The notes beneath the pieces were generated by a model, which had not been told where the DNA came from, made no database searches, and saw nothing but the letters and a program-made list of their open reading frames with translations. A stretch of 64,000 bases of DNA from the NCBI RefSeq assembly GCF_044647545.1, contig NZ_CP172818.1; one strand, given 5' to 3'. Position 1 is the first letter of the stretch, and each line of letters starts with the position of its first letter. Position numbers and translations under genes: made by a program. Origin of the DNA: Escherichia coli. Its GTDB lineage: Bacteria > Pseudomonadota > Gammaproteobacteria > Enterobacterales > Enterobacteriaceae. Positions 39,735-63,236 of this stretch are shown here, one piece after another.

Positions 39735-39774
39735 AATACTCACTCGCCTCTGCTCATTCAGAGGCGAGTAAAAC

Positions 39775-44113: not shown

Positions 44114-44138
44114 TTGGGCGAAAGAAAAGATCCGTAAT

Positions 44139-44222: not shown

Positions 44223-44238
44223 CATTAAGGCAAGAAAA

Positions 44239-45384: not shown

Positions 45385-45452
45385 TTTGCTTGCTTTCTGT
45401 TAGATTCCGCCGCAAATCTATACTGAATAAAACGGCTAAAAGACGAACCATT

Positions 45453-45962
45453 ATGAAACCATCATCTTCAAACTCACGCAGCAAAGGTCATGCAAAAGCG
45501 CGTCGAAAAACACGCGAGGAGCTGGATCAGGAAGCTCGTGACCGTAAGCGTCAGAAAAAACGTCGTGGTCATGCGCCGGGCAGCCGCGCAGCGGGCGGTA
45601 ACACCTCGTCAGGCAGCAAAGGCCAGAACGCACCAAAAGATCCACGTATTGGCAGTAAAACCCCTATTCCATTGGGCGTGACTGAAAAAGTCACCAAACA
45701 GCACAAACCGAAGAGTGAGAAACCTATGCTTTCACCGCAGGCGGAGTTGGAATTACTGGAAACGGATGAGCGTCTGGATGCGCTGCTGGAACGTCTGGAA
45801 GCAGGCGAAACCCTGAGCGCCGAAGAGCAATCCTGGGTGGATGCTAAACTGGATCGTATTGATGAGTTGATGCAGAAACTCGGCCTCTCTTATGACGATG
45901 ACGAAGAAGAGGAAGAAGACGAGAAGCAAGAAGACATGATGCGTCTGCTGCGGGGCAACTAA
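45453..45962 (+). CDS. yihI: Der GTPase-activating protein YihI, 169 aa
   Basis: [46 protein letters not shown]..; internal ATG of track ORF. Confidence 0.92.
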
Positions 45963-46150
45963 CGGATTGCCGCCGTGGGCCTTCCCGTTCTGCTGATAAC
46001 CCTTCCGGTTATATGTTATCTGGTGTGGTTATTCGTTAAACTACAGCGGTTGTCGCGGCGACAAAAGTGGCTGCGCAACCGGCTGATGACCCGAAACGGG
46101 CATCCGCCGGTACGCCGTAGCCGCCAGAGACGCCATCGGAAGGAGTGAGC

Positions 46151-47524: not shown

Positions 47525-47589
47525 ATAGTGAATGGCGCTTCGTTTACAAAGTAGAAAACGAAAGCGCCATCAATGTGCTGAGAACAAGA

Positions 47590-47745
47590 TTGCCTGATGC
47601 GCTGGGCAACAAAACCTGTAGAAATTATTGCTTTTGTAGGCCAGATAAGGCGTTTACGCCGCATCTGGCATCTGAGCATGATGCCTGATGCGACGCTGGT
47701 CGCGTCTTATCAGGCCTACGACTTTCTCCGCATCCGGCATAAACA
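47590..47745. repeat. REP/BIME cluster between hemN and glnG
   Basis: Repeated gcctgatgcgacgctgg / ggataaggcgtttacgccgcatc motifs. Confidence 0.85.
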
Positions 47746-47974
47746 ACGAGCTTCAGCTAAACAGCCCAATCATCGCGGCACACAGCACGGCAGCAACGGC
47801 AGTTTGCGGTGTGTGGCTGTCAACTGCGCCACTCGATACCAGATTAATTATTGATTCCAGCATAATGACTCTCCCCGTTTTCCGGGCAAGATCATACTGA
47901 ACTTATCGGAACAGTAAAGCGCAAAATACCAGCAATTTGCGCTCAATAATCAATCTTTACACACAAGCCGTGAA

Positions 47975-49384
47975 TCACTCCATTCCCAGCTCTTTTAACT
48001 TCCGCGTCAGAGTGTTACGCCCCCAGCCGAGTAGCCGCGCCGCTTCCTGTTTATGCCCCTGCGTATGTCGCAACGCGGTCGTCAGTAACGTCCGCTCCAA
48101 CTCTGGTTGCGCTTCAGACAGCAAGTTTTGATGACCGGAACGTAGCGCCCGATCTGCCCACTGTGCTAACAGCGTTGCCCAACTGTCCGGCTGCATTTGT
48201 GAAGTGCTTTCCGGTACGGTTGATTCAAACAGTTCGCCAGGCAAATCCTGAATCAACACTTCCTGTCCGGCAGCCATTACCGTTAGCCAGCGGCAGGTGT
48301 TTTCCAGCTGGCGCACGTTGCCTGGCCACGCCAGACGCGTCAGAGCGGCTTCAGTTTCCGGATGCAGCAACTTTGCTTCTACGCCCAGCTCGCGAGCAGC
48401 AACTTGTAAAAAATGGTGTGCCAGACGGGGAATATCTTCCCGACGCTCACGCAGCGGCGGCAGATGAACACGGATGACGTTCAGGCGGTGGAACAGATCC
48501 TCACGGAACTTGCCTTCCTGCACCCGCTGTTCGAGATTCTGGTGAGTGGCAGCGATAATCCGCACATCCACTTTCACCGGTGCATAGCCGCCAACGCGAT
48601 AAAACTGACCGTCTGCCAGCACGCGCAGCAAACGCGTCTGCACATCCAGCGGCATATCGCCAATTTCATCGAGAAATAACGTGCCGCCATCGGCTTGTTC
48701 AAAACGCCCCTGACGAATGGTATTCGCGCCGGTAAACGCGCCTTTCTCGTGACCAAACAGTTCTGATTCGATCAAATCCTTCGGGATAGCCGCCATATTG
48801 AGCGCGATAAACGGCGCTTTGGCTCGCGGGCTGTGGCGATGCAGGGCATGAGCGACCAGTTCTTTACCAGTGCCGGATTCGCCGTTGATCAGCACGCTAA
48901 TGGAAGAACGCGAAAGTCGACCGATAATACGGAACACGTCCTGCATGGCTGGCGCTTCGCCGATGATATCGGTCGTTGGGCCGTTAAGCTGAACATTACG
49001 CGGCTGCTGCTGTTCCTGATAATGACTGATGGCGCGCTCAACCAGCGCCACGGCTTCGTCGATATCAAACGGTTTGGGCAGATAATCAAACGCCCCTTGT
49101 TGATAGGCGCTGACGGCAGCATCCAGATCGGAATGTGCGGTCATAATGATGACCGGAAGCATTGGATGGCGCTGTTTAATCTGCTTGAGCAGCGCCAGCC
49201 CGTCCATTCCCGGCATACGGATATCTGAAAGCAGTACATCCGGCGTTTTGCTCGCCAACGCCTCCAGTACTTCCGCGCCGTTCTCAAATGTCGTACAGGT
49301 TAAACCCGCTCCAGCGAGCGCACGTTCAAGCACCCAACGGATGGAACTATCGTCATCGACTACCCAGACTATCCCTCGTTGCAT
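47975..49384 (-). CDS. glnG: nitrogen regulation response regulator NtrC (sigma-54 activator), 469 aa
   Basis: [23 protein letters not shown].. receiver, AAA+ (GESGTGKE) and HTH domains. Confidence 0.96.
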
Positions 49385-49395
49385 AAACGTCACCT

Positions 49396-50445
49396 TTATT
49401 TCCTGATAGGCAGGTAAACCGAGAACTCGGTATGACCTGGCCAACTGGTAAATTCAATTTTGCCTGAATGCTGATCAATCAAATTACGGGCGATGGATAA
49501 GCCAAGCCCGGTGCCACCTTCGCGGCCGCTGACCATCGGGTAAAACAGCGTATCCTGCAAATGAGGCGGAATGCCCGGCCCGTTATCTTCCACATCAATC
49601 CGCGCCGCCAGCCGATAGCGCTCGCCGTGCAAGGTCAGTTGAAACGCTGTGCGGGTACGCAGAATGATTTCACCACCCTCCGGCCCCAGCGCCTGTAGCG
49701 CATTGCGCACAATATTCAGCAAGACCTGTTCAATTTGATCCGGGTCGTGCGCCAGTTCCGGCAGGCTGGGATCGTAATCACGAATCAACCGCACGTTGTC
49801 CGGCAGTTCCATCGACACCAGCGTCACCACGCGTTCAGCCACTTTGTGAATACTTTCGGTAACGCGCGTACCGGGCAGCTGCGGCCCCAACAGACGGTCG
49901 ACCAGATTTCGCAGCCGGTCCGCCTGTTCGATAATTACTTTGGTATATTCGAGTAGTGACGGGTCAGGTAATGCCTTGCTGAGTAGCTGCGCCGCACCAC
50001 GTAAACCGCCAAGCGGATTTTTAATCTCATGCGCCAGGCCGCGCACTAAATCACGGGCAGCAACCTGCTGGGCGTGCTGTAGCTGTTCCTGACTTAAGCG
50101 GCGCTGGTTATCCATCGGTGCCATCTCCAGCAGGATCATGCCGTCCGGCATACGCTGGGCCGTCACAGAAAGGATATGCGAACGCCCGTCGATGACCAGC
50201 GTCACTTCGTTATCGGTAAAACCTTGCCCCGCCTCCAGACTTTCTTGCATCAGCTCGATATTTAATGAGAAGTAGCTCAACAGTTCCGGTAACGGTGTAC
50301 CAAACAATTTGCGGGAGCTTTGGGCGAGCAGTTGTTGCGCGGCGGGGTTGGCGTAATGGATCGCCAGGTTGTCATCGATTAACAAAATACTGTTAATCAG
50401 CGAGTTGAGGATCTGCCCAGCATCGGGCTGCGTGCCTGTTGCCAT
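49396..50445 (-). CDS. glnL: nitrogen regulation sensor histidine kinase NtrB, 349 aa
   Basis: PAS, H-box (HEIKNPL) and ATPase domains. Confidence 0.96.
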
Positions 50446-50583: not shown

Positions 50584-51993
50584 TTAGACGCTGTAGTACA
50601 GCTCAAACTCTACCGGATGCGGAGTCATACGCACACGGTCATCTTCTTCGCGACGCAGAGCGATGTACGCATCGATCGCTTCATCAGTGAACACGCCACC
50701 GGCTTTCAGGAACTCGCGGTCCAGATCCAGTTCGTTCAGTGCTTCTTCCAGAGAACCAGCAACCTGTGGGATCTCTTTCGCTTCTTCCGGCGGCAGGTCA
50801 TACAGGTTTTTGTCCATCGCTTCGCCCGGATGGATCTTGTTCTTGATACCGTCAAGACCGGCCATCAGCAGGGCAGCAAAGCACAGGTACGGGTTAGCCG
50901 CCGGGTCCGGGAAACGTACTTCGATACGACGTGCTTTCGGAGAAGAAACCACCGGAATACGGATAGACGCAGAACGGTTACGCGCAGAGTAAGCCAGCAT
51001 TACCGGTGCTTCGTAGCCCGGGACCAGACGCTTATAAGAGTTGGTGGTCGGGTTTGCCAGGGCGTTAATTGCTTTCGCGTGTTTGATTACGCCGCCAATG
51101 TAGTACAGCGCCTGTTCAGACAGACCTGCGTATTTGTCGCCAGCAAACAGGTTAACGCCGTTTTTAGACAGCGACATGTGGCAGTGCATACCGGAACCGT
51201 TATCACCGAACATCGGTTTTGGCATAAAGGTCGCAGTTTTACCGAAGCGGTGCGCTACGTTGTGCACAACATATTTGTAGATCTGAATTTCGTCAGCTTT
51301 TTTGGTCATGGTATTGAAGCGGGTAGCCACTTCGTTCTGACCAGCAGTCGCTACTTCGTGGTGATGGGCTTCAACCACCAGACCCATCTGTTCCATCACC
51401 AGACACATTTCAGAACGAATATCCTGAGCCGAGTCTACCGGTGGAACCGGGAAGTAACCGCCTTTCACTGCCGGACGGTGACCTTTGTTACCACCTTCGT
51501 ATTGGGTGGAGGAGTTCCATGCGCCTTCGATATCGTCGATAGCAACGTGGGAACCGGAGATAGATGATCCGAAACGGATGTCATCGAACAGGAAGAATTC
51601 AGGTTCTGGCCCGAACAGTACGGTGTCGGCAATGCCAGTGGAACGCAGGTAATCTTCGGCGCGCTTCGCAATGGAGCGCGGGTCACGGTCATAGCCTTGC
51701 AGGGTGCCAGGTTCAAGGATGTCGCAACGGATAATCAGGGTGGAGTCGGCGAAGAACGGGTCAATCACTGCGGTGGATGCGTCTGGCATCAGCACCATGT
51801 CGGATTCGTTAATGCCTTTCCAGCCGCCAATCGAGGAGCCGTCAAACATTTTGCCTTCTTCGAAGAATTCAGCATTCACCTGATGAGCAGGGATAGTGAC
51901 GTGCTGTTCTTTACCTTTGGTATCGGTGAAGCGCAAATCAACAAACTTCACTTCGTGCTCGTTCAGCATCGTCAGTACGTGTTCAGCGGACAT
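50584..51993 (-). CDS. glnA: glutamine synthetase, 469 aa
   Basis: [31 protein letters not shown].. canonical GlnA. Confidence 0.98.
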
Positions 51994-52078
51994 ACTTTAA
52001 CTCTCCTGGATTGGTCATGGTCGTCGTGGTAACGAAATCTGCAATTATTTTGGCCGTGTCGCCGTAAAAAAGATAAAG

Positions 52079-52095
52079 CGAAAACTGTGCCAACT
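52079..52095 (-). promoter_or_regulatory. glnAp2 sigma-54 promoter (-24 GG / -12 GC; minus strand reads gttggcacagttttcgc)
   Basis: TGGCAC-N5-TTCGC element about 90 bp upstream of glnA start. Confidence 0.75.
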
Positions 52096-52139
52096 TTTAA
52101 ATTGCCCCTAAAAGGCGTTATCATGCTTAACATCGTGCA

Positions 52140-52215
52140 AAAGGGCTGCACCATGATGTGAATGTTGCACCAATATAGTGCTTCAATGGAAACATTAAGC
52201 ACCATATTGGTGCAA
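52140..52215. promoter_or_regulatory. NtrC enhancer sites upstream of glnA (tgcaccaatatagtgc, gcaccatattggtgca) overlapping the glnAp1 region
   Basis: Repeated TGCACC-N5-GGTGCA-like palindromes. Confidence 0.7.
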
Positions 52216-52365
52216 TGGCCTTTGGATAACCCTTTTTATGCTCCGTGAAAGCGATCACAAAGGGACTCTGCAATACTTGTTTGCGGAGGATGTTTGTGAT
52301 CCTGTTTTGTAGTGCGATTAATCCGTGTACAATAACGCGCTATTTCTAATGCCTGAGGCAAAGTT

Positions 52366-54189
52366 GTGATCGAAAAATTGCGTAATATCGCCATCATCGC
52401 GCACGTAGACCATGGTAAAACCACCCTGGTAGACAAGCTGCTCCAACAATCCGGTACGTTCGACTCTCGTGCCGAAACCCAAGAGCGCGTGATGGACTCC
52501 AACGATTTGGAGAAAGAGCGTGGGATTACCATCCTCGCGAAAAACACCGCTATCAAATGGAATGATTACCGTATCAACATCGTTGATACCCCGGGGCACG
52601 CCGACTTCGGTGGTGAAGTTGAACGTGTAATGTCCATGGTAGACTCAGTGCTGCTGGTGGTTGACGCATTTGACGGCCCGATGCCGCAAACGCGCTTCGT
52701 AACCAAAAAAGCGTTTGCTTACGGCCTGAAGCCGATTGTTGTTATCAACAAAGTTGACCGCCCTGGCGCGCGTCCTGATTGGGTTGTGGATCAGGTATTC
52801 GATCTGTTCGTTAACCTCGACGCGACCGACGAGCAGCTGGACTTCCCGATCGTTTACGCTTCTGCGCTGAATGGTATCGCGGGTCTGGACCACGAAGATA
52901 TGGCGGAAGACATGACCCCGCTGTATCAGGCGATTGTTGACCACGTTCCTGCGCCGGACGTTGACCTTGACGGTCCGTTCCAGATGCAGATTTCTCAGCT
53001 CGATTACAACAGCTATGTTGGCGTTATCGGCATTGGCCGCATCAAGCGCGGTAAAGTGAAGCCGAACCAACAGGTTACTATCATCGATAGCGAAGGCAAA
53101 ACCCGCAACGCGAAAGTCGGTAAAGTGCTGGGCCACCTCGGTCTGGAACGTATCGAAACCGATCTGGCGGAAGCTGGCGATATCGTGGCGATCACGGGTC
53201 TTGGCGAACTGAACATTTCTGACACCGTTTGCGACACGCAAAACGTTGAAGCGCTGCCGGCACTCTCCGTTGATGAGCCGACCGTTTCTATGTTCTTCTG
53301 CGTTAACACCTCGCCGTTCTGCGGTAAAGAAGGTAAGTTCGTAACGTCTCGTCAGATCCTGGATCGTCTGAACAAAGAACTGGTACACAACGTTGCGCTG
53401 CGCGTAGAAGAAACCGAAGACGCCGATGCGTTCCGCGTTTCTGGTCGTGGCGAACTGCACCTGTCTGTTCTTATCGAAAACATGCGTCGTGAAGGTTTCG
53501 AACTGGCGGTATCCCGTCCGAAAGTAATCTTCCGTGAAATCGACGGTCGTAAACAAGAGCCGTATGAAAACGTGACGCTGGACGTTGAAGAACAGCATCA
53601 GGGTTCTGTGATGCAGGCGCTGGGCGAACGTAAAGGCGACCTGAAAAACATGAATCCAGACGGTAAAGGCCGCGTACGTCTCGACTACGTGATCCCAAGC
53701 CGTGGTCTGATTGGCTTCCGTTCTGAGTTCATGACCATGACTTCCGGTACTGGTCTGCTGTACTCCACCTTCAGCCACTACGACGACGTACGTCCGGGCG
53801 AAGTGGGTCAGCGTCAGAACGGTGTACTGATCTCTAACGGTCAGGGTAAAGCGGTCGCGTTCGCGCTGTTCGGTCTGCAGGATCGCGGTAAGCTGTTCCT
53901 CGGTCACGGTGCAGAAGTTTACGAAGGTCAGATTATCGGTATTCATAGCCGCTCTAACGACCTGACTGTAAACTGCCTGACCGGTAAGAAACTGACCAAC
54001 ATGCGTGCTTCCGGTACTGACGAAGCCGTTGTTCTGGTTCCGCCTATCCGCATGACTCTGGAACAAGCTCTGGAGTTCATCGATGATGACGAACTGGTAG
54101 AAGTGACTCCGACCTCTATCCGTATTCGTAAACGTCACCTGACGGAAAACGATCGTCGTCGCGCCAACCGCGCACCGAAAGACGATTAA
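52366..54189 (+). CDS. typA: ribosome-associated translational GTPase BipA/TypA, 607 aa
   Basis: GTG start; [25 protein letters not shown].. EF-G-like GTPase. Confidence 0.96.
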
Positions 54190-54206
54190 TTTCGTTTTTT
54201 AGTTAT

Positions 54207-54239
54207 AAAAAACCTGCCATCGCTGGCAGGTTTTTTTTT
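54207..54239 (+). terminator. intrinsic terminator downstream of typA
   Basis: aaaaaacctgccatcgctggcaggttttttttt. Confidence 0.85.
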
Positions 54240-54405
54240 GCCTGTCGTGAGCGCACACCAATGCGAGTATCTCCCTTATAAGTCTGTGGTTACGTCAATA
54301 GAGAGCTTTGTCACAATTATCTGCAAAGTCATACGCCGTTAATTGCTTTCTTTTTTGGCGTAAGCGTAAGATGCTTCATCTGGTTTAAACCAAAAGGATT
54401 AAACA

Positions 54406-55115
54406 ATGGCGGAGAATCAATCCACCGTAGAAAATGCAAAAGAGAAACTGGATCGGTGGTTGAAAGATGGCATCACCACGCCGGGTGGAAAACTCCCTTC
54501 AGAAAGAGAGCTGGGAGAACTGCTGGGCATTAAACGTATGACGCTGCGCCAGGCGTTGTTGAACCTCGAGGCAGAATCCAAAATCTTCCGTAAGGATTGT
54601 AGGGGTGGTTCGTGACCCAGCCGCGATTTAATTACAGTCCGGAGCTGTCAGCGAGCTTTCAGCGGGCCGCAATTGAGCAAGGACGAGAGCCTTCCTGGGG
54701 GTTTACCGAGAAAAACCGTACCAGCGATATTCCCGAGACGCTCGCGCCACTGATCGCAGTGACACCATCAACTGAACTCTATCGCATCACCGGCTGGGGG
54801 GCGCTGGAAGGACATAAAGTTTTCTATCACGAAACATATATTAATCCTGAAGTTGCTCCGGGCTTTATTGAACAACTTGAAAACCACTCATTTTCTGCAG
54901 TCTGGGAAAAGTGCTACCAAAAAGAGACGGTAGTAAAAAAATTGATTTTCAAACCCGTCAGAATGCCGGGCGATATCAGCAAGTATCTTGGCGGTTCTGC
55001 GGGTATGCCAGCGATCTTAATTGAAAAGCATCGCGCCGACCAGCAAGGCAATATTGTCCAAATAGATATTGAATATTGGCGATTTGAGGCCGTAGACCTC
55101 ATCATTAATCTGTAG
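54406..55115 (+). pseudogene. yihL: GntR-family transcriptional regulator YihL, interrupted by a frameshift near 54590-54615 (ORFs 54406..54615, 69 aa, and 54612..55115, 167 aa)
   Basis: Two adjacent ORFs in different frames overlapping at gtga; together 236 aa, matching the remembered YihL length (N-terminal HTH plus C-terminal UTRA-like domain). Confidence 0.7.
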
Positions 55116-55122
55116 GTGTTTT

Positions 55123-56103
55123 ATGGTGACAATAAATAACGCAAGAAAGATTCTACAACGTGTCGACACTCTTCCTCTTTATTTACATGCTTATGCCTTT
55201 CATTTAAATATGCGGCTGGAAAGAGTGTTGCCTGCTGATTTACTTGATATCGCAAGTGAAAATAATCTACGTGGCGTCAAAATCCATGTTCTCGATGGCG
55301 AGCGTTTTTCTCTTGGTAATATGGACGATAAAGAACTCTCTGCCTTTGGGGATAAAGCCCGCCGTCTGAACCTTGATATTCATATTGAAACCAGCGCCTC
55401 AGATAAGGCATCTATTGACGAAGCCGTCGCCATCGCGTTGAAAACTGGGGCATCGTCCGTACGTTTTTATCCACGTTATGAAGGTAATTTGCGCGACGTA
55501 TTATCGATTATCGCTAACGACATTGCCTATGTACGGGAAACGTATCAGGACAGCGGCCTGACTTTTACGATCGAGCAGCATGAAGATTTAAAAAGTCATG
55601 AGCTGGTGTCGCTGGTCAAAGAAAGTGAGATGGAATCTCTTTCCTTACTGTTTGATTTTGCGAACATGATCAATGCAAATGAGCATCCCATCGACGCTTT
55701 AAAAACGATGGCACCGCATATTACCCAGGTCCATATCAAAGATGCCTTGATCGTTAAAGAACCGGGTGGCCTGGGTCATAAAGCCTGTATTTCAGGTCAG
55801 GGTGATATGCCGTTCAAAGCGTTATTAACGCACCTTATCTGCCTGGGTGATGATGAGCCGCAGGTGACGGCATATGGCCTGGAAGAAGAGGTTGATTACT
55901 ATGCGCCGGCGTTCCGCTTTGAAGACGAAGATGATAATCCGTGGATCCCTTATCGCCAGATGAGTGAAACACCATTGCCAGAAAATCATTTACTGGATGC
56001 GCGGTTACGTAAAGAAAAAGAAGATGCAATTAATCAGATAAATCATGTGCGTAACGTACTACAACAAATCAAACAAGAGGCAAACCATCTTCTGAACCAC
56101 TAA
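55123..56103 (+). CDS. yihM: xylose-isomerase-like TIM-barrel (sugar phosphate isomerase/epimerase family) protein YihM, 326 aa
   Basis: 326-aa ORF in conserved position. Confidence 0.85.
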   Translation: MVTINNARKILQRVDTLPLYLHAYAFHLNMRLERVLPADLLDIASENNLRGVKIHVLDGERFSLGNMDDKELSAFGDKARRLNLDIHIETSASDKASIDEAVAIALKTGASSVRFYPRYEGNLRDVLSIIANDIAYVRETYQDSGLTFTIEQHEDLKSHELVSLVKESEMESLSLLFDFANMINANEHPIDALKTMAPHITQVHIKDALIVKEPGGLGHKACISGQGDMPFKALLTHLICLGDDEPQVTAYGLEEEVDYYAPAFRFEDEDDNPWIPYRQMSETPLPENHLLDARLRKEKEDAINQINHVRNVLQQIKQEANHLLNH

Positions 56104-56204
56104 TAAGTTTTAACTCATACGCAGTTAATAAAACCATTCCATATGAATGGTCGGTATCTTATTGCCTTTAAAACAGTGATTTTAAAAATCGCTTAGGGGA
56201 TGTT

Positions 56205-57470
56205 ATGCTCACGAAAAAGAAATGGGCGTTATTTAGTCTATTAACACTGTGTGGCGGTACAATTTATAAATTACCGTCGCTGAAAGATGCGTTTTATATC
56301 CCGATGCAGGAATATTTCCATTTGACCAATGGTCAAATTGGTAATGCTATGTCGGTAAACTCATTTGTCACCACAGTGGGCTTTTTTCTGTCTATTTATT
56401 TTGCCGATAAACTACCGCGCAGATACACCATGTCATTCTCACTCATTGCGACAGGATTACTGGGTGTTTATTTGACGACAATGCCGGGGTATTGGGGCAT
56501 CCTCTTTGTCTGGGCGCTATTTGGCGTTACTTGCGACATGATGAACTGGCCGGTCTTGCTCAAGTCGGTAAGTCGATTGGGCAATAGCGAACAACAAGGT
56601 CGGTTGTTTGGCTTCTTCGAAACAGGGCGTGGCATTGTCGATACCGTGGTGGCATTTTCTGCGTTGGCAGTATTTACCTGGTTTGGCAGTGGCTTATTAG
56701 GTTTTAAAGCAGGCATCTGGTTCTATTCCCTTATTGTGATTGCCGTAGGCATTATTATTTTCTTTGTCCTGAATGACAAAGAAGAGGCACCGTCCGTTGA
56801 GGTGAAAAAAGAAGACGGAGCATCGAAAAACACCAGTATGACCTCGGTGCTGAAAGACAAAACTATCTGGCTTATCGCTTTTAACGTCTTCTTCGTTTAC
56901 GCGGTTTACTGTGGCCTGACATTCTTCATTCCATTCCTGAAAAACATCTATCTATTGCCCGTTGCGCTGGTGGGGGCTTACGGCATCATTAACCAATACT
57001 GTCTGAAAATGATTGGTGGACCGATTGGTGGCATGATTTCAGATAAGATCCTGAAATCGCCAAGTAAATATCTATGCTACACCTTTATCATTAGTACCGC
57101 TGCGCTCGTACTGTTGATTATGCTGCCGCACGAAAGTATGCCGGTCTATTTAGGGATGGCATGTACGCTGGGCTTTGGCGCGATAGTCTTTACACAGCGA
57201 GCCGTATTTTTTGCACCTATCGGCGAAGCAAAAATTGCTGAAAATAAAACAGGTGCGGCGATGGCGTTGGGTAGCTTTATTGGTTACGCTCCGGCGATGT
57301 TCTGCTTCAGTCTGTATGGCTACATTCTGGATTTAAATCCGGGGATTATTGGCTACAAAATCGTGTTTGGCATTATGGCCTGCTTCGCATTCAGTGGTGC
57401 GGTGGTTTCCGTAATGCTGGTTAAGCGTATTAGCCAACGTAAGAAAGAGATGCTGGCGGCTGAAGCTTAA
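56205..57470 (+). CDS. yihN: MFS-family transporter YihN, 421 aa
   Basis: 421-aa polytopic membrane ORF. Confidence 0.88.
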   Translation: MLTKKKWALFSLLTLCGGTIYKLPSLKDAFYIPMQEYFHLTNGQIGNAMSVNSFVTTVGFFLSIYFADKLPRRYTMSFSLIATGLLGVYLTTMPGYWGILFVWALFGVTCDMMNWPVLLKSVSRLGNSEQQGRLFGFFETGRGIVDTVVAFSALAVFTWFGSGLLGFKAGIWFYSLIVIAVGIIIFFVLNDKEEAPSVEVKKEDGASKNTSMTSVLKDKTIWLIAFNVFFVYAVYCGLTFFIPFLKNIYLLPVALVGAYGIINQYCLKMIGGPIGGMISDKILKSPSKYLCYTFIISTAALVLLIMLPHESMPVYLGMACTLGFGAIVFTQRAVFFAPIGEAKIAENKTGAAMALGSFIGYAPAMFCFSLYGYILDLNPGIIGYKIVFGIMACFAFSGAVVSVMLVKRISQRKKEMLAAEA

Positions 57471-57476
57471 TTAATG

Positions 57477-57560
<84 letters not shown>

Positions 57561-58253
57561 TCAGAAGAAATACTTCGTCCCGATACGAATCTGGTTTTGC
57601 TCGCGGTGGTACGGTTCGACATTACGATCTAACCAGCGCAATTCAATATAGGGCAACCAGTGCTCATTAATGCGATAACGGAAGGTGTTAGTGATTTCCC
57701 AGTGATGCTTCGTACCATTGCTGCTATTGAAATCATTAATGTTATAAAAATAATGCGGTTCAAAGGTATATGAGAACTTATCGGTAATAATAAAGTTCCA
57801 GTAGTTGCCAATCTCGTAGCTGTCATTATTATCCAGATCACCGTTCAAATCGGTTGAGCTGTAGTTATTATGGTTAAAACGATTACGTACCGTCAGGTTA
57901 AACCATGGAGTAAATTTGTAGTTAACATCCAGATAAACAGCACCACCCGAACCGATACTCTTATCATTAATTAAGCCACCGGGCTGGATGGTTAATTTAT
58001 CGGTTGGTTTGAATAACGGATACCAACCTTCGATTTCGTTATATCCATGTTTGAGTTCATCTTCTCGCTGAAAGGTGTAGGTATTGGTTAACATAATACC
58101 CGCGCCCATATCGAAGTTATAACCCACACGTAGCATAACCTCGCCCTGATCGGAGGCGAGATTATATGCCTCCCTGTTTTCGACGTATGCGCCAGCAAAT
58201 ACCGAGGCAGAGGTCAGAGAGGATAATAGAATTATTGCATTAATCTTTTTCAT
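57561..58253 (-). CDS. ompL: outer membrane porin OmpL, 230 aa
   Basis: MKKINAIILLSSLTSASVFA signal peptide, beta-barrel-like sequence ending ..GTKYFF. Confidence 0.9.
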   Translation of the reverse strand: MKKINAIILLSSLTSASVFAGAYVENREAYNLASDQGEVMLRVGYNFDMGAGIMLTNTYTFQREDELKHGYNEIEGWYPLFKPTDKLTIQPGGLINDKSIGSGGAVYLDVNYKFTPWFNLTVRNRFNHNNYSSTDLNGDLDNNDSYEIGNYWNFIITDKFSYTFEPHYFYNINDFNSSNGTKHHWEITNTFRYRINEHWLPYIELRWLDRNVEPYHREQNQIRIGTKYFF

Positions 58254-58319
58254 AATAAGTCCATTTTTAAACGTAGGGAGGCCGCCACCCACCAGGATGG
58301 AAATAGCGGCTATTGACAT

Positions 58320-59723
58320 TTATAACGTTACGGAAGCCGTTTTTTCTTCTGTCGCCATCTCTTTATTTTTGCGTTGGTTGATTTCCTCAATAATCAATGC
58401 AAACCGTTTTTCATTGAGTGTGTAAAAGAATCCCATCGTCAATGCAGCAATAATTGCCAGTGCACAAGGCCAGATAAAAATGAGCTGACGCAAACCCTGT
58501 AATGTCGCATCACTTTGCGCGATGTTGGGAACATAACCGATTTGCGTCAGCATAATGCCTGGCAAGAAGCCAGCAAGTGCGGCAGAAATTTTACGAAAGA
58601 AGGTATAACCGGTATAAACAGAACCTTCGGCACGAATACCGGTTTTCCATTCACCGTAATCTACGGTATCTGGCACCAGTGCCCAGTTCAGGCTGTTTAC
58701 AAAGGCCGTGCCAAAAAAGGCGACACAAGAGAACATGACGAAAGTGAAAGAGTTACTTCCCCAGAAATAATTCAGGATATCACCAACCGCCCATAGCACC
58801 ATGCCAGCTAAATAAACCTGTTTTTTACCAAAACATTTTACAGTTAATGGCACCAGTAATACGCCGACGAGGATACATCCCATACTGAAAAATCCCATCC
58901 ACGACAATAAATTAATATCATTCAGCACATACTGGGTGTAATAGACCTGAATCGCCAGTTTGATATTAAATGCCGCCAGGGTACACAGGTTAGCAATGCA
59001 CAAAACCAGCAATGGCGGATTACGAAATATCGCGCAAAAAGATTTGAGAATACTGGCTTTATGTCCGGTTGGCGTCGTGTCTACATAATGCTCTTTGACG
59101 CCTCTGTAGCACAGCATCATAAAAATAAAGCCACCAATGGAGAACATCAGTGCCGCGCAGGCATAACCGACGGTGGAGTCAGAAAAAAGCGACTGCAATG
59201 GAATAAATGCTACGGTACAAATCAATAGCCCTATGGTTGCGCCGCCCTGGCGGTAAGCCGCAAGCTGCGCGCGCTCATTCGGGTTTTTGGTAATTGCCGG
59301 GATCATCGCGCCATACGAGCAGTTCATCAGACTGTATGAAAGTCCAAACATCATAAACAGCGCGGTGGCAATCGTCGTTTTAACCGGCAAACTAAAAGTG
59401 GTGGCGATAAACTGGAGCGTTGCAATTAACGCCGCCGGAACCGCTGCATATAAAATAAAGGGACGAAATTTGCCTTTAGGCCCAATATTTTTCCGCGAGT
59501 CGAGTAAAAATCCGGTGAGCATATCGGTAAATGCGGTAAAAAACTTCGCCACCAGAAAGATAATCCCGCCATAGTAAGCAGGCATCCCTAATTCATCGGT
59601 ATAAAATTTGAGGAGATACAGAGTACCGATGCAGAGCATTAAATTCGAACCGACGTCGCCCATACCATAGGCGATTTTTTCCCGCAGATTCAGTCTTAAT
59701 GTCAGTGGATTATGGTCAGACAT
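58320..59723 (-). CDS. yihO: GPH-family sugar:cation symporter (sulfoquinovose importer) YihO, about 467 aa
   Basis: Polytopic GPH-family ORF; start MSDHNPLTL. Confidence 0.88.
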   Translation of the reverse strand: MSDHNPLTLRLNLREKIAYGMGDVGSNLMLCIGTLYLLKFYTDELGMPAYYGGIIFLVAKFFTAFTDMLTGFLLDSRKNIGPKGKFRPFILYAAVPAALIATLQFIATTFSLPVKTTIATALFMMFGLSYSLMNCSYGAMIPAITKNPNERAQLAAYRQGGATIGLLICTVAFIPLQSLFSDSTVGYACAALMFSIGGFIFMMLCYRGVKEHYVDTTPTGHKASILKSFCAIFRNPPLLVLCIANLCTLAAFNIKLAIQVYYTQYVLNDINLLSWMGFFSMGCILVGVLLVPLTVKCFGKKQVYLAGMVLWAVGDILNYFWGSNSFTFVMFSCVAFFGTAFVNSLNWALVPDTVDYGEWKTGIRAEGSVYTGYTFFRKISAALAGFLPGIMLTQIGYVPNIAQSDATLQGLRQLIFIWPCALAIIAALTMGFFYTLNEKRFALIIEEINQRKNKEMATEEKTASVTL

Positions 59724-59765
59724 AATCACTCCTTATAACGCCCCGCAGGGCGTTGTTTATTATAA

Positions 59766-61154
59766 TTACGCCGTGCGTTTACGGGCTTCTATCTCTTCAA
59801 CAATGCGGACGTACATCTTCTCGTTCAGACTGTAGAAGCAACCCATTGCCACGATGGTGACTACTGCCAGTGCGCTTGGGTAGATGAAGATCAGTTGGCG
59901 CAACCCTTCGATAGTGTGGTCAGCCTGGGCGACGTTTGGCACATAGCCGATTTGCGTCAGCATCCAGCCTGGGAAGAAACCTGCCAGCGCCTGAGATACT
60001 TTGCGAAAGAAGGTGAAACCGGTGTAGACCGTACCTTCCGAACGCACACCGGTGCGCCACTCGCCGTACTCGACGGTGTCGGAAACCAGCGCCCAGTTCA
60101 GGCTGTTAACAAACGCTGAGCCGAAGAATGCCAGGCAGGAGAACGCCACGAAGCTGACCGAACCGCCGCCAAAGAAATAGTTGAGCAGATCGCCAAGCAC
60201 CCAAATCAGCAGGCCGCCGATATAGACCTTCTTCTTACCAAAACGTCTGACTGCGCCGGGCATCAGGAACACGCCGATGAAAATACAGCCCATGCTGAAA
60301 AATCCCATATATGACAACAGGATGGGATCGTTGAGCACGTACTGGGTGTAATAGACCTGAATGGCGAGCTTGACGTTAAACGCCCCTAAAGTGCAGAGGT
60401 TGGCAATACACAGAATGAACAGTGGGCGGTTACCAGCAATCGCGCGGAAAGACTGCAACAAGCCAGGCTTTTTTTGCGCCGGATTGGTAGGTTGGGTTTC
60501 GACATAACGCTCTTTCACGCCCGAGTAGCAGATCCACATAAACAGCAGGCCGAACAGTGAAAACAGCGTGGCGGCGAAGATATAGCCAAGTTGCTGATTA
60601 CCTTCGATAAGATTCATAACCGGCACGAATCCCACCGTACACAGCAGCAGGCCTAATGTAGCGCCACCCTGACGCCATGCTGCCAGCGATGCACGTTCGT
60701 TGGGGTTTTTAGTAATAGCGGGGACCATCGCGCCATACGAGCAGTTCATCATGCTGAAAAACAGTCCGTAAAGCATAAACAGGATGGTGGCCATCACCGT
60801 TTTACCGGTGACATCGAACGGCGTACCGATAAAGTTGGCGATCGCCAGCAGGGTGACCGGGAATGACGCATACAGAATAAAAGGACGGAACTTGCCTTTT
60901 GGGCCGATCTTGCGTCGGGAATCCAGCATGATGCCTGTTCCCATATCGGTAAACGCAGTAAAGAATTTTGAAATCAAAAAGATAATGCCGCCATAGGTGC
61001 CAGGCAGCCCCAGAACGTCGGTATAAAACTTCAAAAGATAAAGCGTACCAATATCCAGCAGGATGTTAGAGGCCAGGTCGCCAATACCGTAAGAGAGTTT
61101 CTCTTTAAAGGGCAGGCGTAAAGTTGCTGGATCTTCCGTTGTGATGTGACTCAT
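59766..61154 (-). CDS. yihP: GPH-family sugar:cation symporter YihP, about 462 aa (start uncertain; track ORF extends to 61187)
   Basis: Paralogous to yihO; start at MSHITTEDPATL preceded by agggaga RBS. Confidence 0.85.
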   Translation of the reverse strand: MSHITTEDPATLRLPFKEKLSYGIGDLASNILLDIGTLYLLKFYTDVLGLPGTYGGIIFLISKFFTAFTDMGTGIMLDSRRKIGPKGKFRPFILYASFPVTLLAIANFIGTPFDVTGKTVMATILFMLYGLFFSMMNCSYGAMVPAITKNPNERASLAAWRQGGATLGLLLCTVGFVPVMNLIEGNQQLGYIFAATLFSLFGLLFMWICYSGVKERYVETQPTNPAQKKPGLLQSFRAIAGNRPLFILCIANLCTLGAFNVKLAIQVYYTQYVLNDPILLSYMGFFSMGCIFIGVFLMPGAVRRFGKKKVYIGGLLIWVLGDLLNYFFGGGSVSFVAFSCLAFFGSAFVNSLNWALVSDTVEYGEWRTGVRSEGTVYTGFTFFRKVSQALAGFFPGWMLTQIGYVPNVAQADHTIEGLRQLIFIYPSALAVVTIVAMGCFYSLNEKMYVRIVEEIEARKRTA

Positions 61155-61199
61155 CGTTGTTCTCCCTTTGCCCGTGAGTTTCCCCACGGGCGGATGTGA

Positions 61200-63236
61200 T
61201 TAGATGCTTTTTAACGACGCGAACAGTGCCGCCCATTCGCTATCGGCGCGATAAAAGACCGGCGGTTTACCGATGGGCGCATTAACGGTAACTTCCCCGC
61301 CCCGGAACGCTTCACCCGTCCAGGCATGGACCCAGTTATCCTCCGGCAGATAGAGCGTCCAGTCGCTACGGCCTTCTTCATGCACCGGAGCGACCAGAAT
61401 GTCGCGGCCTAACAGGTACTGATATTTCAGGGTGTAGGTCTGCGCGTCGTCTTCGTAATGCAGGAACAGCGGGCGCATAACCGGCAGGCCGGACTTCGCA
61501 TTCAGCGCGACGGCCTCTTTCAGGTAAGGTTTCAGGGTGGTGAAGACGGTGGTCATACGGGCAAAATGGGCGATGGTTTCCGCGTCGCCGTCAAACTGCC
61601 AGTTGTCGCCAGGACGGTTACCTTCGTGGGTGCGCATCATCGGCGTGAAGGCGCTGAAATCGCACCAGCGCAGCAGCAGCTCTTTGCTGCGCTTCATCTC
61701 AAACAGGGTGGTGTAACCGCCAATATCGCTGTGATGCAGGCCATGTCCGGTCATTGCCAGCGACAGCGCCGCCGGGACAACCGACGCCAGGCCATCGTCG
61801 AGACTCCAGTCGACGTTCTGGTCGCCCGCCCACATCATGGTGGAGTATTTCTGGCTACCGGTAGAACCGGCGCGCATAAAGAAAAGGATCTCGCCAAGCT
61901 TGCCCGTTTCTTCAAGGGCTTCGTAGTTACATTTCGCCCACAGTGCGGGCCAGGCGTTATGCATAATTTCCGCGCTGACGCCGTTATGCAGGTAAGTGTC
62001 GGTGGGCAGATACTCGCCGAAGTCAGCCATCCAGCCGCCGCAGCCGAGTTCAATCATGTTCTTTTTGATCACTTCCTTGAACCAGGCGTAGGCTTCTGGA
62101 TTGGTGAGATCGACAACGCCGCCATAGAACTCGCCAAACTCCACCAGATAGTCGCCGCCAGAGGCATCTTTTGCCAGATAGCCGTGTGAAGCCGCCTCGG
62201 CGCAGAGGTCCTTATCGCTGGCAACATACGGGTTGATGTAGGCGAGGAACTGCACGCCTTCTTTGTTCCACTGTTTAATACGCGAATCCAGTTGCGGATA
62301 GTTTTCGCTGTTCCACTTCCAGTTCCACATCACACGTTTACCAAACGAGGTCATACGGATCCCGGACCAGTCCTGCGCCCAGATGCCGTTGACCTTCACG
62401 CCCGCGTTACGCATGGTGTCCAGTTTCTTCTGGCACACCTCAGTGCCGCCCTGAATGCCGAGCGTTACCCCGTCATAAATCCAGTCGGGCAGTTCTGGCT
62501 GGCGTCCCAGCAGGGCAGTTAATTTTTCCAGCAGGGAGATGTATGTATCAGCACATTCAAAACGCAGCGTTGCTTTGTCTTCCCACAGCGCCAGTTCATG
62601 GTATTCCGGGGCGCTAAAGTCGAAGTTCATGTAGCAACTGTTATCAACATGGCAGTAATACTTCTGCGTGCTGACAAACGTAGGCTGTGGGAAGAAAGTC
62701 CAGTAATAGTCGCCGCCCGCGTTCTCTTTGCAGTCGGCCTGCCAGGTGACATAGGTTTGCTTGTTGCGACCAACGCCTTGTTCACTGGTCCATAGCGGGA
62801 ACGGTTTGCCGCGCAGATCAAAGTAGGAGAATTGTTCACCGCAGCCGTAGATATGGTCCTCTGGTTGAGCGGCAAGGCGCAGCCAGATACGGTTGTGGTT
62901 AAGGTTGTCGTTTTGTAGTTCCAGCAATAAACGGCCCTGTTCGTCGGCAGAGATACGCAGCGTGGCGCTAATGTCAGAACCACGGCTGAAATGGATTAAC
63001 CAACCATCCGGTGACTGGCTGACGATGGCGTCGGTAAGCGCAATTTTCTCCTGTAGTTTATCTTTAATGCTGAAATTGCCGCGGAACATATCGATATCCG
63101 CAATACCTGAACCAATCCATAAACAAGGATTATCTTTGCTATGGGTTAAAATAAGACGCTGTTGAAAATGTAGGGTAAAACTGTCGTTATTCTGATGAAA
63201 CTGAAAATCTGGTAATTGTGGGCGTGGCGTATCCAT
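61200..63236 (-). CDS. yihQ: family GH31 alpha-glucosidase-like sulfoquinovosidase YihQ, 678 aa
   Basis: 678-aa GH31-like ORF. Confidence 0.92.
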   Translation of the reverse strand: MDTPRPQLPDFQFHQNNDSFTLHFQQRLILTHSKDNPCLWIGSGIADIDMFRGNFSIKDKLQEKIALTDAIVSQSPDGWLIHFSRGSDISATLRISADEQGRLLLELQNDNLNHNRIWLRLAAQPEDHIYGCGEQFSYFDLRGKPFPLWTSEQGVGRNKQTYVTWQADCKENAGGDYYWTFFPQPTFVSTQKYYCHVDNSCYMNFDFSAPEYHELALWEDKATLRFECADTYISLLEKLTALLGRQPELPDWIYDGVTLGIQGGTEVCQKKLDTMRNAGVKVNGIWAQDWSGIRMTSFGKRVMWNWKWNSENYPQLDSRIKQWNKEGVQFLAYINPYVASDKDLCAEAASHGYLAKDASGGDYLVEFGEFYGGVVDLTNPEAYAWFKEVIKKNMIELGCGGWMADFGEYLPTDTYLHNGVSAEIMHNAWPALWAKCNYEALEETGKLGEILFFMRAGSTGSQKYSTMMWAGDQNVDWSLDDGLASVVPAALSLAMTGHGLHHSDIGGYTTLFEMKRSKELLLRWCDFSAFTPMMRTHEGNRPGDNWQFDGDAETIAHFARMTTVFTTLKPYLKEAVALNAKSGLPVMRPLFLHYEDDAQTYTLKYQYLLGRDILVAPVHEEGRSDWTLYLPEDNWVHAWTGEAFRGGEVTVNAPIGKPPVFYRADSEWAALFASLKSI

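What the first reader, a model, noticed from the sequence alone, without database searches (positions are those of the whole stretch)
54406..57470. yihL-yihM-yihN: poorly characterised putative sugar-catabolic module beside the sulfoquinovose genes
A GntR-type regulator (frameshifted here), a xylose-isomerase-like TIM-barrel enzyme and an MFS transporter form a likely operon upstream of ompL-yihOPQ. Their substrate is not established to my knowledge. Loss of the regulator could derepress the module.
Basis: partly seen in the sequence, partly recalled or inferred. Interest (0 to 1): 0.3.

Follow-up and report, generated by a model that had tools for sequence, protein, structure and literature searches.

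The report
yihLMN module with broken repressor
This is the known but uncharacterised E. coli yihL-yihM-yihN gene trio, a self-contained regulator, enzyme and transporter module that only happens to sit beside the sulfoquinovose genes, and in this strain its repressor gene is split by a private one-base deletion, so the module is probably switched on without its inducer.

Summary
Window 54406-57470 holds yihL, yihM (intact TIM-barrel enzyme) and yihN (intact MFS transporter). yihL is split by a 1-nt deletion at 54601 next to a C>T change at 54598. No complete E. coli genome of 4,252 carrying this segment has that allele.

The proposed link to sulfoquinovose is not supported. The trio keeps the same gene order in about 55 genomes and at least 20 different neighbourhoods. 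It lies next to ompL-yihOPQ only in Escherichia and a few Citrobacter, and there it is convergent with ompL. In 158 E. coli genomes another cassette fills the slot.

A 12-bp palindrome, TGGTTTAAACCA (54381-54392), is invariant just upstream of every yihL ortholog. It coincides with the published YihL ChIP-exo peak. A CRP-like site sits at a fixed distance upstream, about -71.5 from the inferred start, and yihLM is published as Crp-activated.

The best reading is a CRP-activated, YihL-repressed catabolic operon that is inducer-independent in this strain. The substrate remains unknown. YihL resembles PhnR and YihN resembles organophosphate:phosphate exchangers. Relatives sit beside aminoethylphosphonate-type ABC transporters, phosphate transporters, a phosphatase and RidA. 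These point weakly to an anionic, possibly phosphorylated or aminated compound rather than a plain sugar. The finding is ordinary and of modest interest.

The parts
54237..57550 (+). The yihLMN cassette as an insertion/replacement unit between the typA terminator and a REP element
   Evidence: The window is 100% identical to ECONIH1 up to 54236 and 99.98% identical from 57551. Between those points ECONIH1 carries a different six-gene cassette. The cassette is 99.8% identical to common E. coli alleles.
54300..54315 (+). CRP-like site AGAGAGCTTTGTCACA, centred about -71.5 from the inferred start (class I position)
   Evidence: A match of at least 8 of 10 to TGTGAN6TCACA occurs in 47 of 57 orthologous loci, with its centre 72-76 nt upstream of the operator. 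Only 4.7% of random 160-nt windows reach that score. The invariant columns in A3 match the contact positions. yihLM is listed as Crp-activated in PMC8085971.
54343..54372 (+). Inferred sigma-70 promoter: -35 TTGCTT (54343-54348), 18-nt spacer, -10 TAAGAT (54367-54372), start near 54379
   Evidence: Read from the sequence. The TAAGAT/TATGAT hexamer keeps its position in enterobacterial orthologs. The consensus scan did not list it, so this is an inference.
54381..54392 (.). YihL operator, perfect palindrome TGGTTTAAACCA (conserved block ATCTGGTTTAAACCAAA, 54378-54394)
   Evidence: It is the only exact copy in the 64-kb window. It is invariant in E. coli, Klebsiella, Morganella and Aeromonas while the rest of the spacer diverges. 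It occurs once per locus, 13-31 nt before yihL, in about 55 loci that have a YihL ortholog, and is absent where L is absent. It lies inside the YihL ChIP-exo peak, S/N 60 (PMC8464067 supplement).
54406..54615 (+). yihL 5' fragment: GntR winged-helix domain, 65 native residues (one changed, R65C) followed by 4 frameshifted residues
   Evidence: PF00392, 64 bits; alignment A1.
54598..54601 (+). The lesion: C>T (R65C) and a 1-nt deletion that shifts the frame
   Evidence: The allele is private to this sequence among 4,252 genomes.
54612..55115 (+). yihL 3' fragment: UTRA effector/dimerisation domain. It could be re-initiated at a GTG that overlaps the upstream TGA (GTGA) behind an AGGGG Shine-Dalgarno-like run
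   Evidence: PF07702, 79 bits. Re-initiation is an inference.
55123..56103 (+). yihM, intact: metal-dependent (beta/alpha)8 enzyme of the xylose isomerase-like superfamily with a long C-terminal helix
56104..56204 (+). yihM-yihN spacer, with no terminator and no significant structure
   Evidence: One search finds no terminator. The fold z-score is -1.4. The spacer is not conserved between genera.
56205..57470 (+). yihN, intact: MFS transporter distantly related to organophosphate:phosphate exchangers
   Evidence: MFS_1, 94 bits. The best NCBIfam hit is TIGR00881, the PgtP/OPA subfamily, at 72.5 bits over the full length. The only PDB hits of the family profile are SLC37A4 glucose-6-phosphate exchangers, E 6e-4.
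57473..57555 (.). Hairpin plus REP element separating the convergent yihN and ompL
   Evidence: The 57468-57560 stretch folds at -39.3 kcal/mol, z -4.6. The many genome-wide matches of the region fit a REP element.

Best explanation
yihLMN is a self-contained, horizontally shuffled catabolic module transcribed from one CRP-dependent promoter.

In the wild type, a YihL dimer (HutC-type GntR repressor, winged helix plus UTRA domain) sits on the palindrome TGGTTTAAACCA at the transcription start. It blocks transcription of yihL-yihM-yihN until its small-molecule effector binds the UTRA domain. CRP-cAMP bound about 71.5 bp upstream is needed for activity, so the module is also catabolite-repressed.

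YihN takes up an anionic organic compound, most likely a phosphate ester or phosphonate, possibly in exchange for phosphate. YihM, a divalent-metal (beta/alpha)8 enzyme, carries out one proton-transfer step next to a carbonyl. That step could be an isomerisation, an epimerisation or a beta-elimination, and it would feed the compound into central metabolism.

In this strain a private 1-nt deletion separates the DNA-binding domain from the dimerisation/effector domain. No functional repressor is made, and yihM and yihN become inducer-independent while staying CRP-dependent.

Shown: the gene content, the lesion, the conserved operator and CRP site, and YihL binding and Crp activation from published data. 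Inferred: repression rather than activation, derepression in this strain, the direction of transport, the reaction type and the substrate class.
For: - Lesion and intact partner genes.
- Module autonomy: the L>M>N order is kept in about 55 of the loci recovered from 100,044 species genomes, in at least 20 different flanking contexts.
- Operator: it is invariant, occurs once per locus, always lies just before yihL, and is absent where L is absent. Marinobacterium and an Oceanospirillaceae MAG have four tandem copies. The published YihL ChIP-exo peak (S/N 60, against about 5 for the other two sites) covers it.
- CRP: there is a conserved site at fixed spacing, and yihLM is listed as Crp-activated.
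- Enzyme class. H204 aligns with the metal-binding His motif of UlaE.
- Anionic or phosphorylated substrate: YihN is closest to the OPA family and SLC37A4. YihL is by far closest to PhnR, at 183 bits against 51 for the next family. The 63%-identical YihM ortholog of Pseudogulbenkiania follows a PhnS/PhnT2-like ABC transporter and a Na/Pi-cotransporter-PhoU gene. Alphaproteobacterial relatives lie in an operon with a PhnT2-like ABC transporter and a HisN-like phosphatase under a MocR-type regulator. RidA sits inside the module in Photobacterium and in Proteus/Providencia.
- A yihN knockout takes up less of many dyes, which the authors read as influx (PMC8131027).
Against: - No expression data exist for this strain.
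- The premature stop could cause Rho-dependent polarity and lower yihM and yihN expression instead of raising it. Re-initiation at the overlapping GTG is only inferred.
- HutC-type regulators are usually, but not always, repressors.
- The promoter hexamers are weak and were not picked up by the consensus scan.
- PMC8085971 lists yihLM without yihN, so yihN may have its own control.
- The substrate-class argument rests on sub-threshold family hits (PhnR 183 against a cut-off of 297; OPA 72 against 408) and on relatives only 45-63% identical.
- RidA is linked only to the sister subtype of the module.
- Other relatives sit with quite different transporters, NCS1 and SBP_bac_5 ABC systems, or in a kinase-aldolase operon. 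The family may therefore handle several substrates.
- Independent IS insertions in the module in other strains suggest it is often dispensable.
Confidence: 0.6

Rival explanations
1. One reading: yihLMN is an accessory part of sulfoquinovose or sulfosugar catabolism, or a rare-sugar module functionally tied to the neighbouring ompL-yihOPQRSTUVW genes.
For: The trio is physically adjacent to ompL-yihOPQ in E. coli, E. whittamii and three Citrobacter species. YihN belongs to organo-anion transporter families, and sulfonates are anions. The yihUTS genes are Crp-activated like yihLM.
Against: The trio is convergent with ompL and separated from it by a strong hairpin and a REP element. In Klebsiella aerogenes, Raoultella and Pseudocitrobacter it follows typA with no sulfoquinovose genes beside it. 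In Morganella, Aeromonas, Serratia, Photobacterium and others it lies in unrelated contexts. In 158 E. coli genomes another cassette replaces it while ompL-yihOPQ remains. It has its own regulator and its own operator. No paper in the library connects yihM with sulfoquinovose.
Confidence: 0.08
2. The frameshift is an assembly or base-calling artefact. The strain has a normal yihL and the module is regulated as in K-12.
For: The lesion lies in and next to a GATC Dam site (GGATCGTAAGG), a context known to give systematic errors in some long-read base callers (own knowledge). The allele is seen in no other genome, and the truncated product is not on record.
Against: The window has no indels against its closest relative over 34945-49447, 51012-54236 and 57551-62578, a span that contains dozens of GATC sites. 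All other differences in the cassette are ordinary substitutions shared with known alleles.
Confidence: 0.12
3. This is early decay rather than derepression. The module is dispensable in this lineage. The yihL lesion is the first step of pseudogenisation, and polarity from the premature stop lowers yihM and yihN expression.
For: Other strains carry independent IS903B, IS30, ISVsa5 or IS4 insertions in yihL or yihN. About 18% of complete E. coli genomes lack yihL. The stop at 54615 leaves 500 nt before yihM.
Against: yihM, yihN, the promoter, the CRP site and the operator are all intact, and they are identical to a strain with an intact yihL. The stop overlaps a GTG start behind a Shine-Dalgarno-like run, which favours re-initiation and continued translation up to yihM (inference).
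Confidence: 0.15
4. YihN is an exporter and YihM a detoxifying or repair enzyme, so the module protects against a toxic metabolite rather than feeding on a nutrient.
For: RidA, a quencher of reactive enamines and imines, is embedded in the sister module. MFS proteins are often exporters. The Acinetobacter locus has a Bcr/CflA efflux pump next to it.
Against: A CRP-activated promoter conserved across families is typical of catabolic uptake systems. Relatives pair the enzyme with binding-protein-dependent ABC importers. The yihN knockout lowers dye accumulation, which the authors read as influx.
Confidence: 0.05

Closest known systems
PhnR with the 2-aminoethylphosphonate regulon of Salmonella (TIGR03337; PhnSTUV transporter, PhnWX enzymes)
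   Same: Both are HutC-type GntR regulators with a UTRA domain that control a local uptake-plus-catabolism unit. YihL scores 183 bits on the PhnR model, far above any other family. Relatives of YihM sit beside PhnS/PhnT2-like ABC transporters.
   Different: YihL is below the PhnR cut-off of 297 bits. There is no phnW or phnX here. The enzyme is a TIM-barrel protein of another superfamily, and the transporter is an MFS protein, not an ABC system.
HutC/NagR/DasR-type repressors and their GT-N-TA-N-AC palindromic operators
   Same: The domain architecture and operator type are the same (TGGT-T-TA-A-ACCA). The site lies at the promoter of the regulator's own operon.
   Different: The effector is unknown. 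In this strain the two domains are on separate reading frames.
Ketose 3-epimerases, UlaE/SgbU, IolI and the isomerase Art22 (xylose isomerase-like TIM barrels)
   Different: Identity is only 12-20%. NCBIfam scores of 15-17 bits fall far below the cut-offs of 200-290. YihM has extra invariant His and Arg residues and a roughly 75-residue C-terminal extension, with a long helix at 288-325. No substrate is known.
Organophosphate:phosphate antiporters (UhpT, GlpT, PgtP, SLC37A4)
   Same: These are the best-scoring characterised relatives of YihN over its full length. A one-enzyme module fits import of an already phosphorylated compound.
   Different: YihN is very distant (72 bits against a cut-off of 408; E 6e-4 to SLC37A4). 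Antiport and phosphate recognition are untested.
Sulfoquinovose (sulfo-EMP) cluster yihO-yihW with the regulator CsqR
   Same: It is the chromosomal neighbour in E. coli. Both are Crp-activated.
   Different: Transcription is convergent, each has its own regulator and operator, and the two are not co-inherited outside Escherichia and Citrobacter or within all E. coli.

Membership tests
GntR family, HutC subfamily | N-terminal GntR winged helix-turn-helix | tested here: met
   PF00392 scores 70 bits in the intact ortholog and 64 bits in window fragment 54406-54615.
GntR family, HutC subfamily | C-terminal UTRA effector/dimerisation domain on the same polypeptide | tested here: not met
   The UTRA domain is present (PF07702, 79 bits), but in this window it is in another frame after the 1-nt deletion at 54601. 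The feature is met in E. coli C, K-12 and all orthologs.
GntR family, HutC subfamily | Palindromic operator of the GT-N-TA-N-AC type bound by the regulator | tested here: met
   TGGTTTAAACCA is conserved in about 55 loci and lies inside the published YihL ChIP-exo peak.
PhnR (TIGR03337) equivalog | Score above the curated cut-off and adjacency to 2-aminoethylphosphonate degradation genes | tested here: not met
   The score is 183 bits against a cut-off of 296.75. No phnW, phnX or phnSTUV lies in the window near the module.
Xylose isomerase-like TIM barrel (PF01261) | Profile match above the gathering score and a (beta/alpha)8 fold | tested here: met
Xylose isomerase-like TIM barrel (PF01261) | Glu-Asp-His-Glu divalent-metal site at the barrel's C-terminal face | tested here: inconclusive
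   E151/E154, D178, H204 and E254-256 are invariant. H204 aligns with the VHVKD metal motif of UlaE, but only weakly (E 0.028). The model's coordinates could not be inspected.
Characterised sugar enzymes of that superfamily (IolE, L-ribulose-5-P 3-epimerase, ketose 3-epimerase) | Score above the curated equivalog cut-off | tested here: not met
   IolE scores 17.2 against 290, and PRK13210 scores 15.2 against 200.
Major facilitator superfamily | MFS_1 profile over both six-helix halves | tested here: met
   The score is 94 bits over residues 33-364.
Organophosphate:phosphate antiporter (OPA) family | Score above the subfamily cut-off; phosphate-binding arginines; antiport | tested here: not met
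   The score is 72.5 bits against a cut-off of 407.75. The link to SLC37A4 is weak. Residue-level checks and transport were not testable.
Sulfoquinovose catabolic cluster | Co-inheritance and co-orientation with yihO-yihW | tested here: not met
   The orientation is convergent. Adjacency occurs in only 5 species (E. coli counted once) among the roughly 57 orthologous loci compared. In 158 E. coli genomes the slot holds another cassette while ompL-yihOPQ stays.
Sulfoquinovose catabolic cluster | Control by CsqR or induction by sulfoquinovose | not tested
   No data were found in the library.
Class I CRP-dependent promoter | CRP site centred near -61.5, -71.5 or -82.5 and dependence on CRP | tested here: met
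   The site at 54300-54315 lies about 71.5 bp upstream of the inferred start. Its spacing to the operator is conserved in 47 of 57 loci. yihLM is listed as Crp-activated. The start site itself is inferred.

The most novel reading that the evidence does not exclude
YihLMN and its relatives encode uptake and one-step conversion of a nutrient not yet recognised for enterobacteria. That nutrient would be an amino-organophosphate or phosphonate-like anion, sensed by a PhnR-like regulator. It would be processed by a TIM-barrel enzyme with a new activity whose product is an imine or enamine in some lineages, which would explain the embedded RidA. This strain would be a natural constitutive mutant in which that activity could be found directly.
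Probability: 0.2. Interest if true: 0.6.

Novelty: already known. Interest (0 to 1): 0.3.

Why it matters
yihL, yihM and yihN are three of the remaining genes of unknown function in E. coli. The transporter has been singled out as an orphan, and the regulator as a transcription factor of unknown function.

The analysis removes a misleading association with sulfoquinovose. It also gives a precise regulatory model, with the operator, the CRP site and the inferred promoter placed to the base. The substrate search narrows to anionic, probably phosphorylated and possibly aminated compounds.

A strain with a naturally broken repressor, or simply a K-12 yihL deletion, should express the module without its inducer. 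That makes phenotype arrays and metabolomics practical.

The slot between typA and ompL also turns out to be a site of cassette replacement in E. coli. For the genome scan itself the result is ordinary: a known gene set with a strain-private loss-of-function mutation.

Tried and rejected
- Literature: searches for yihL/yihM/yihN, yihLMN, yihM with sulfoquinovose, and phosphonate with xylose isomerase-like found no substrate assignment. A search for Art22, the closest solved structure, found nothing useful.
- An exact look-up of the truncated 69-aa product found no other occurrence.
- Sequence searches of PDB gave only weak hits for YihM, and none for YihN as a single sequence.
- Profile comparison of the YihM family with E. 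coli endonuclease IV gave nothing, so a phosphodiesterase of the Nfo type is not supported. Comparison with UlaE gave only the His motif.
- No informative domain fusions exist among distant YihM relatives. Two of the three distant relatives examined lay on contigs too short to show context.
- The yihM-yihN spacer was checked for a conserved operator, terminator or RNA structure, and none was found.
- An apparent burst of 206 gaps against ECONIH1 turned out to be a poor alignment at another cassette boundary near 10.4-12 kb. It is not a sign of low sequence quality.
- The clustering of all six cassette differences inside yihL first looked like local hypermutation. Three of the six are alleles shared with E. 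coli C, so it is ordinary allelic mosaicism plus three private changes.
- The adjacency of the module to the eut operon in Morganella was considered as a hint to phosphoethanolamine. It was left as a coincidence because it occurs in one genus only.
Full report
**What is there**

The ORF table places three + strand genes exactly at the stated coordinates. A split yihL occupies 54406-54615 and 54612-55115. yihM is at 55123-56103 and yihN at 56205-57470. They lie between typA (52366-54189, + strand) and ompL (57561-58319, - strand), which is followed by yihO and yihP.

Pfam assigns a GntR winged helix to the first yihL piece and a UTRA domain to the second. YihM falls in the xylose isomerase-like TIM-barrel family, just above threshold. 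YihN is an MFS_1 protein.

Alignment with the intact yihL of E. coli C shows GGATCGTAAGG changed to GGATTGT-AGG. This is a C>T change at 54598 (R65C) and loss of one A at 54601. The first frame then ends after four foreign residues at a TGA. That TGA overlaps a GTG (GTGA) from which the UTRA part could be re-initiated.

A 76-nt probe across the lesion matched 4,252 complete E. coli genomes, none exactly. The truncated product is not on record. The allele is therefore private.

yihM and yihN are intact. Each differs by one residue from E. coli C. Both are identical in DNA to strain 300709, as are all the spacers. The only six differences from that strain in 3,314 nt lie in yihL.

Sequence quality around the locus is high, with no indels against the closest genome over roughly 23 kb of flanks. 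A burst of gaps near 10.4-12 kb is a poor alignment at another cassette boundary. The lesion touches a GATC site, so a base-calling artefact cannot be fully excluded. I give that 0.12.

**Relation to the sulfoquinovose genes**

The trio is convergent with ompL, not upstream of it. The two are separated by a hairpin plus a REP element that folds at -39.3 kcal/mol, z -4.6.

The window's flanks are 100% and 99.98% identical to strain ECONIH1. Between typA and ompL, however, that strain carries a different six-gene cassette on the minus strand. It encodes a Cof-type hydrolase, STM4011 and STM4012 radical SAM proteins, an STM4013 hydrolase, STM4014 and STM4015. In all, 158 of 5,426 complete E. coli genomes have that cassette, and 4,422 have yihL. 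The cassette in the window is an ordinary E. coli allele, 99.8% identical to common ones.

Outside E. coli, YihM orthologs of 60-85% identity occur across Enterobacterales, Aeromonas, Photobacterium, Neisseriaceae and Acinetobacter. I called ORFs in the 80 loci recovered from one genome per species and clustered them. The order regulator-enzyme-transporter is kept in about 55 loci, in at least 20 different flanking contexts.

- In Klebsiella aerogenes, Raoultella and Pseudocitrobacter the trio follows typA but is followed by yihX-, yihY- and dtd-like genes, with no sulfoquinovose genes beside it.
- In Morganella it lies between the eut genes and nirBD.
- In Aeromonas it lies elsewhere again.

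ompL-yihOPQ follows yihN only in Escherichia and three Citrobacter species. The module is therefore autonomous, and the adjacency is positional.

**Regulation**

The spacer upstream of yihL diverges between genera except for one block, ATCTGGTTTAAACCAAA. Its core, TGGTTTAAACCA, is a perfect palindrome of the type used by HutC-subfamily regulators. It is the only exact copy in the 64-kb window.

Across the fetched loci the 12-mer, or TGGTTTATACCA in one subgroup, occurs once per roughly 17 kb. It always lies 13-31 nt before the yihL start in loci that have a YihL ortholog. It is absent where that regulator is missing (Proteus/Providencia, alphaproteobacteria). Marinobacterium and a related Oceanospirillaceae genome have four tandem copies, between yihL and a divergent ABC operon.

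Gao et al. 2021 tested YihL by ChIP-exo and report three sites. One dominates, with S/N 60.5 at 4058436-4058459, assigned to yihL. The other two have S/N about 5 (PMC8464067, supplement 5). Reads were mapped to NC_000913.2. In NC_000913.3 yihL starts at 4060447, so the palindrome is at 4060422-4060433. With the 1,977-nt offset between the two versions (from my memory of the record lengths) the 24-bp peak encloses the palindrome.

A CRP-like site matching at least 8 of 10 positions of TGTGAN6TCACA is found in 47 of 57 loci, with its centre 72-76 nt upstream of the operator. Only 4.7% of random 160-nt windows from the same loci reach that score.

In the window the elements are:

| Element | Coordinates |
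|---|---|
| CRP-like site | 54300-54315 |
| Plausible -35, TTGCTT | 54343-54348 |
| Plausible -10, TAAGAT | 54367-54372 |
| Inferred transcription start | about 54379 |
| Operator | 54381-54392 |

This puts CRP at about -71.5 (class I) and the operator at +3 to +14. The hexamers are inferred, and the consensus scan did not list them.

Independently, PMC8085971 lists yihLM among newly assigned Crp-activated units.

The L-M gap is 7 nt. The 101-nt M-N spacer has no terminator and no significant structure, and it is not conserved. Co-transcription of all three genes is therefore likely but not proven.

**Consequence of the lesion**

In HutC-type regulators the UTRA domain provides dimerisation and effector binding. 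A 65-residue winged helix alone is not expected to occupy a palindrome stably (established knowledge of the family; inference here). The most likely result is loss of repression, with expression still dependent on CRP.

The GTGA stop-start overlap sits behind an AGGGG run. This favours re-initiation, which would keep ribosomes on the message up to yihM and limit polarity (inference). The alternative, that the lesion is a first step of decay with polar loss of expression, gets 0.15. Other strains do carry independent IS insertions in yihL and yihN.

**What the module may act on**

The family keeps invariant acidic and histidine residues at the strand ends. Its HIKD motif aligns with the metal-binding His of UlaE. 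No curated enzyme model comes near its cut-off. The fold says 'metal-assisted proton transfer next to a carbonyl' and no more.

Several sub-threshold or contextual pointers agree with each other:

- YihL scores 183 bits on the PhnR model, the regulator of 2-aminoethylphosphonate use. The next family scores 51. The Marinobacterium ortholog behaves the same way.
- YihN's best characterised relatives are the organophosphate:phosphate exchangers. These are TIGR00881 over the full length and SLC37A4 in PDB. The anion:cation symporters come next.
- The 63%-identical YihM ortholog of Pseudogulbenkiania follows a PhnS-like binding protein, two permeases, a PhnT2-like ATPase (376 bits) and a Na/Pi-cotransporter-PhoU protein.
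- In alphaproteobacteria a 45%-identical relative closes an operon. It follows a PhnS/PhnT2-like ABC transporter (424 bits; cut-off 458) and precedes a HisN-like inositol-monophosphatase-family phosphatase. The operon is divergent from a MocR-type, PLP-dependent regulator.
- In the sister subtype of the module a RidA enamine/imine deaminase lies between M and N in three Photobacterium species. In Proteus/Providencia it lies before N-M, where a YheO-type regulator replaces YihL.

Set against this, other relatives pair with an NCS1 permease and an SBP_bac_5 ABC system. One distant relative sits in an operon of oxidase, FGGY kinase, YihM-like protein and class II aldolase. The family may therefore not have a single substrate.

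My reading is as follows. An anionic substrate is likely, at about 0.6. A phosphate ester or phosphonate is plausible, at about 0.35. An amino group is possible. A neutral sugar or a sulfosugar is unlikely. A yihN knockout accumulates less of many dyes, which the authors read as influx (PMC8131027).

**Comparison with what is known, and verdict**

These are the catalogued E. coli genes b3872-b3874. YihL is listed among transcription factors of unknown function (PMC9308461), and YihN is described as an orphan transporter. The object is therefore already known.

What is new here:

- the private frameshift allele;
- the demonstration that the module is autonomous and not tied to sulfoquinovose;
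- the base-level operator, CRP site and inferred promoter, consistent with published ChIP-exo and Crp data;
- a weak but convergent pointer to an organophosph(on)ate-like substrate.

Interest is modest, at 0.3. The most novel reading not excluded is that this is a pathway for an unrecognised amino-organophosphate nutrient with a new TIM-barrel activity, and that this strain is a ready-made constitutive mutant. I give that 0.2.

Noticed in passing
window 54237-57550 and its flanks; L002 3269-8803: The slot between typA and ompL is a cassette-replacement site. Here yihLMN fills it. In ECONIH1 and 157 other complete E. coli genomes a six-gene cassette fills it instead, encoding STM4011/STM4012 radical SAM proteins, HAD-type hydrolases, STM4014 and STM4015. 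The window's flanks are identical to that other lineage.
   Followed up: partly
L093 (E. coli SCEC020023) 470-5667; hits H1-H20, H75-H79: Independent IS insertions disrupt the module in other strains. IS903B interrupts both yihL and yihN in SCEC020023. IS903B, IS30, ISVsa5 and IS4 elements lie in or next to the module in others. This suggests the module is often dispensable.
   Followed up: partly
window 54598-54764: All six differences from the closest cassette allele (strain 300709) fall within 167 nt of yihL, while the remaining 3.1 kb is identical. Three of the six are alleles shared with E. coli C, so this looks like a small recombination patch plus three private changes.
   Followed up: partly
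window 57561-58253 (ompL): The ompL allele differs by about 10% in DNA from that of E. coli C and is also clearly diverged from that of strain 300709. It is identical to ECONIH1. The outer-membrane porin gene is far more diverged than its neighbours.
   Followed up: no
window about 10424-12000: The alignment with ECONIH1 breaks down here. ECONIH1 has a tripartite tricarboxylate transporter and dgo-like genes between udp and rmuC that the window seems to lack or replace. This is another cassette difference.
   Followed up: no
L067 and L078, about 640-710 nt upstream of the YihM homolog: Four tandem copies of TGGTTTAAACCA, spaced 22-26 bp apart, lie between the yihL ortholog and a divergent SBP_bac_5-type ABC transporter operon in Marinobacterium and an Oceanospirillaceae MAG. 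The regulon there is larger.
   Followed up: partly
L095 2933-10060: A distant YihM relative lies in a DeoR-controlled operon. The operon encodes an opine-oxidase-like DAO and Pyr_redox_2 pair, an FGGY kinase, a class II aldolase and an Fe-ADH-like protein, next to an SBP_bac_5 gene.
   Followed up: no
L055, L060, L061, L068, about 1.95-2.05 kb after the yihL start: In the sister subtype of the module a second, weaker operator-like site (GGTATATACC, GGTATACACC or GGTCTATACC) lies about 1.95-2.05 kb after the yihL start, i.e. near the end of yihM or in the yihM-yihN spacer. This hints at separate control of the transporter. E. coli has instead an unrelated palindrome, CCATTCCATATGAATGG, at window 56131-56147.
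   Followed up: no
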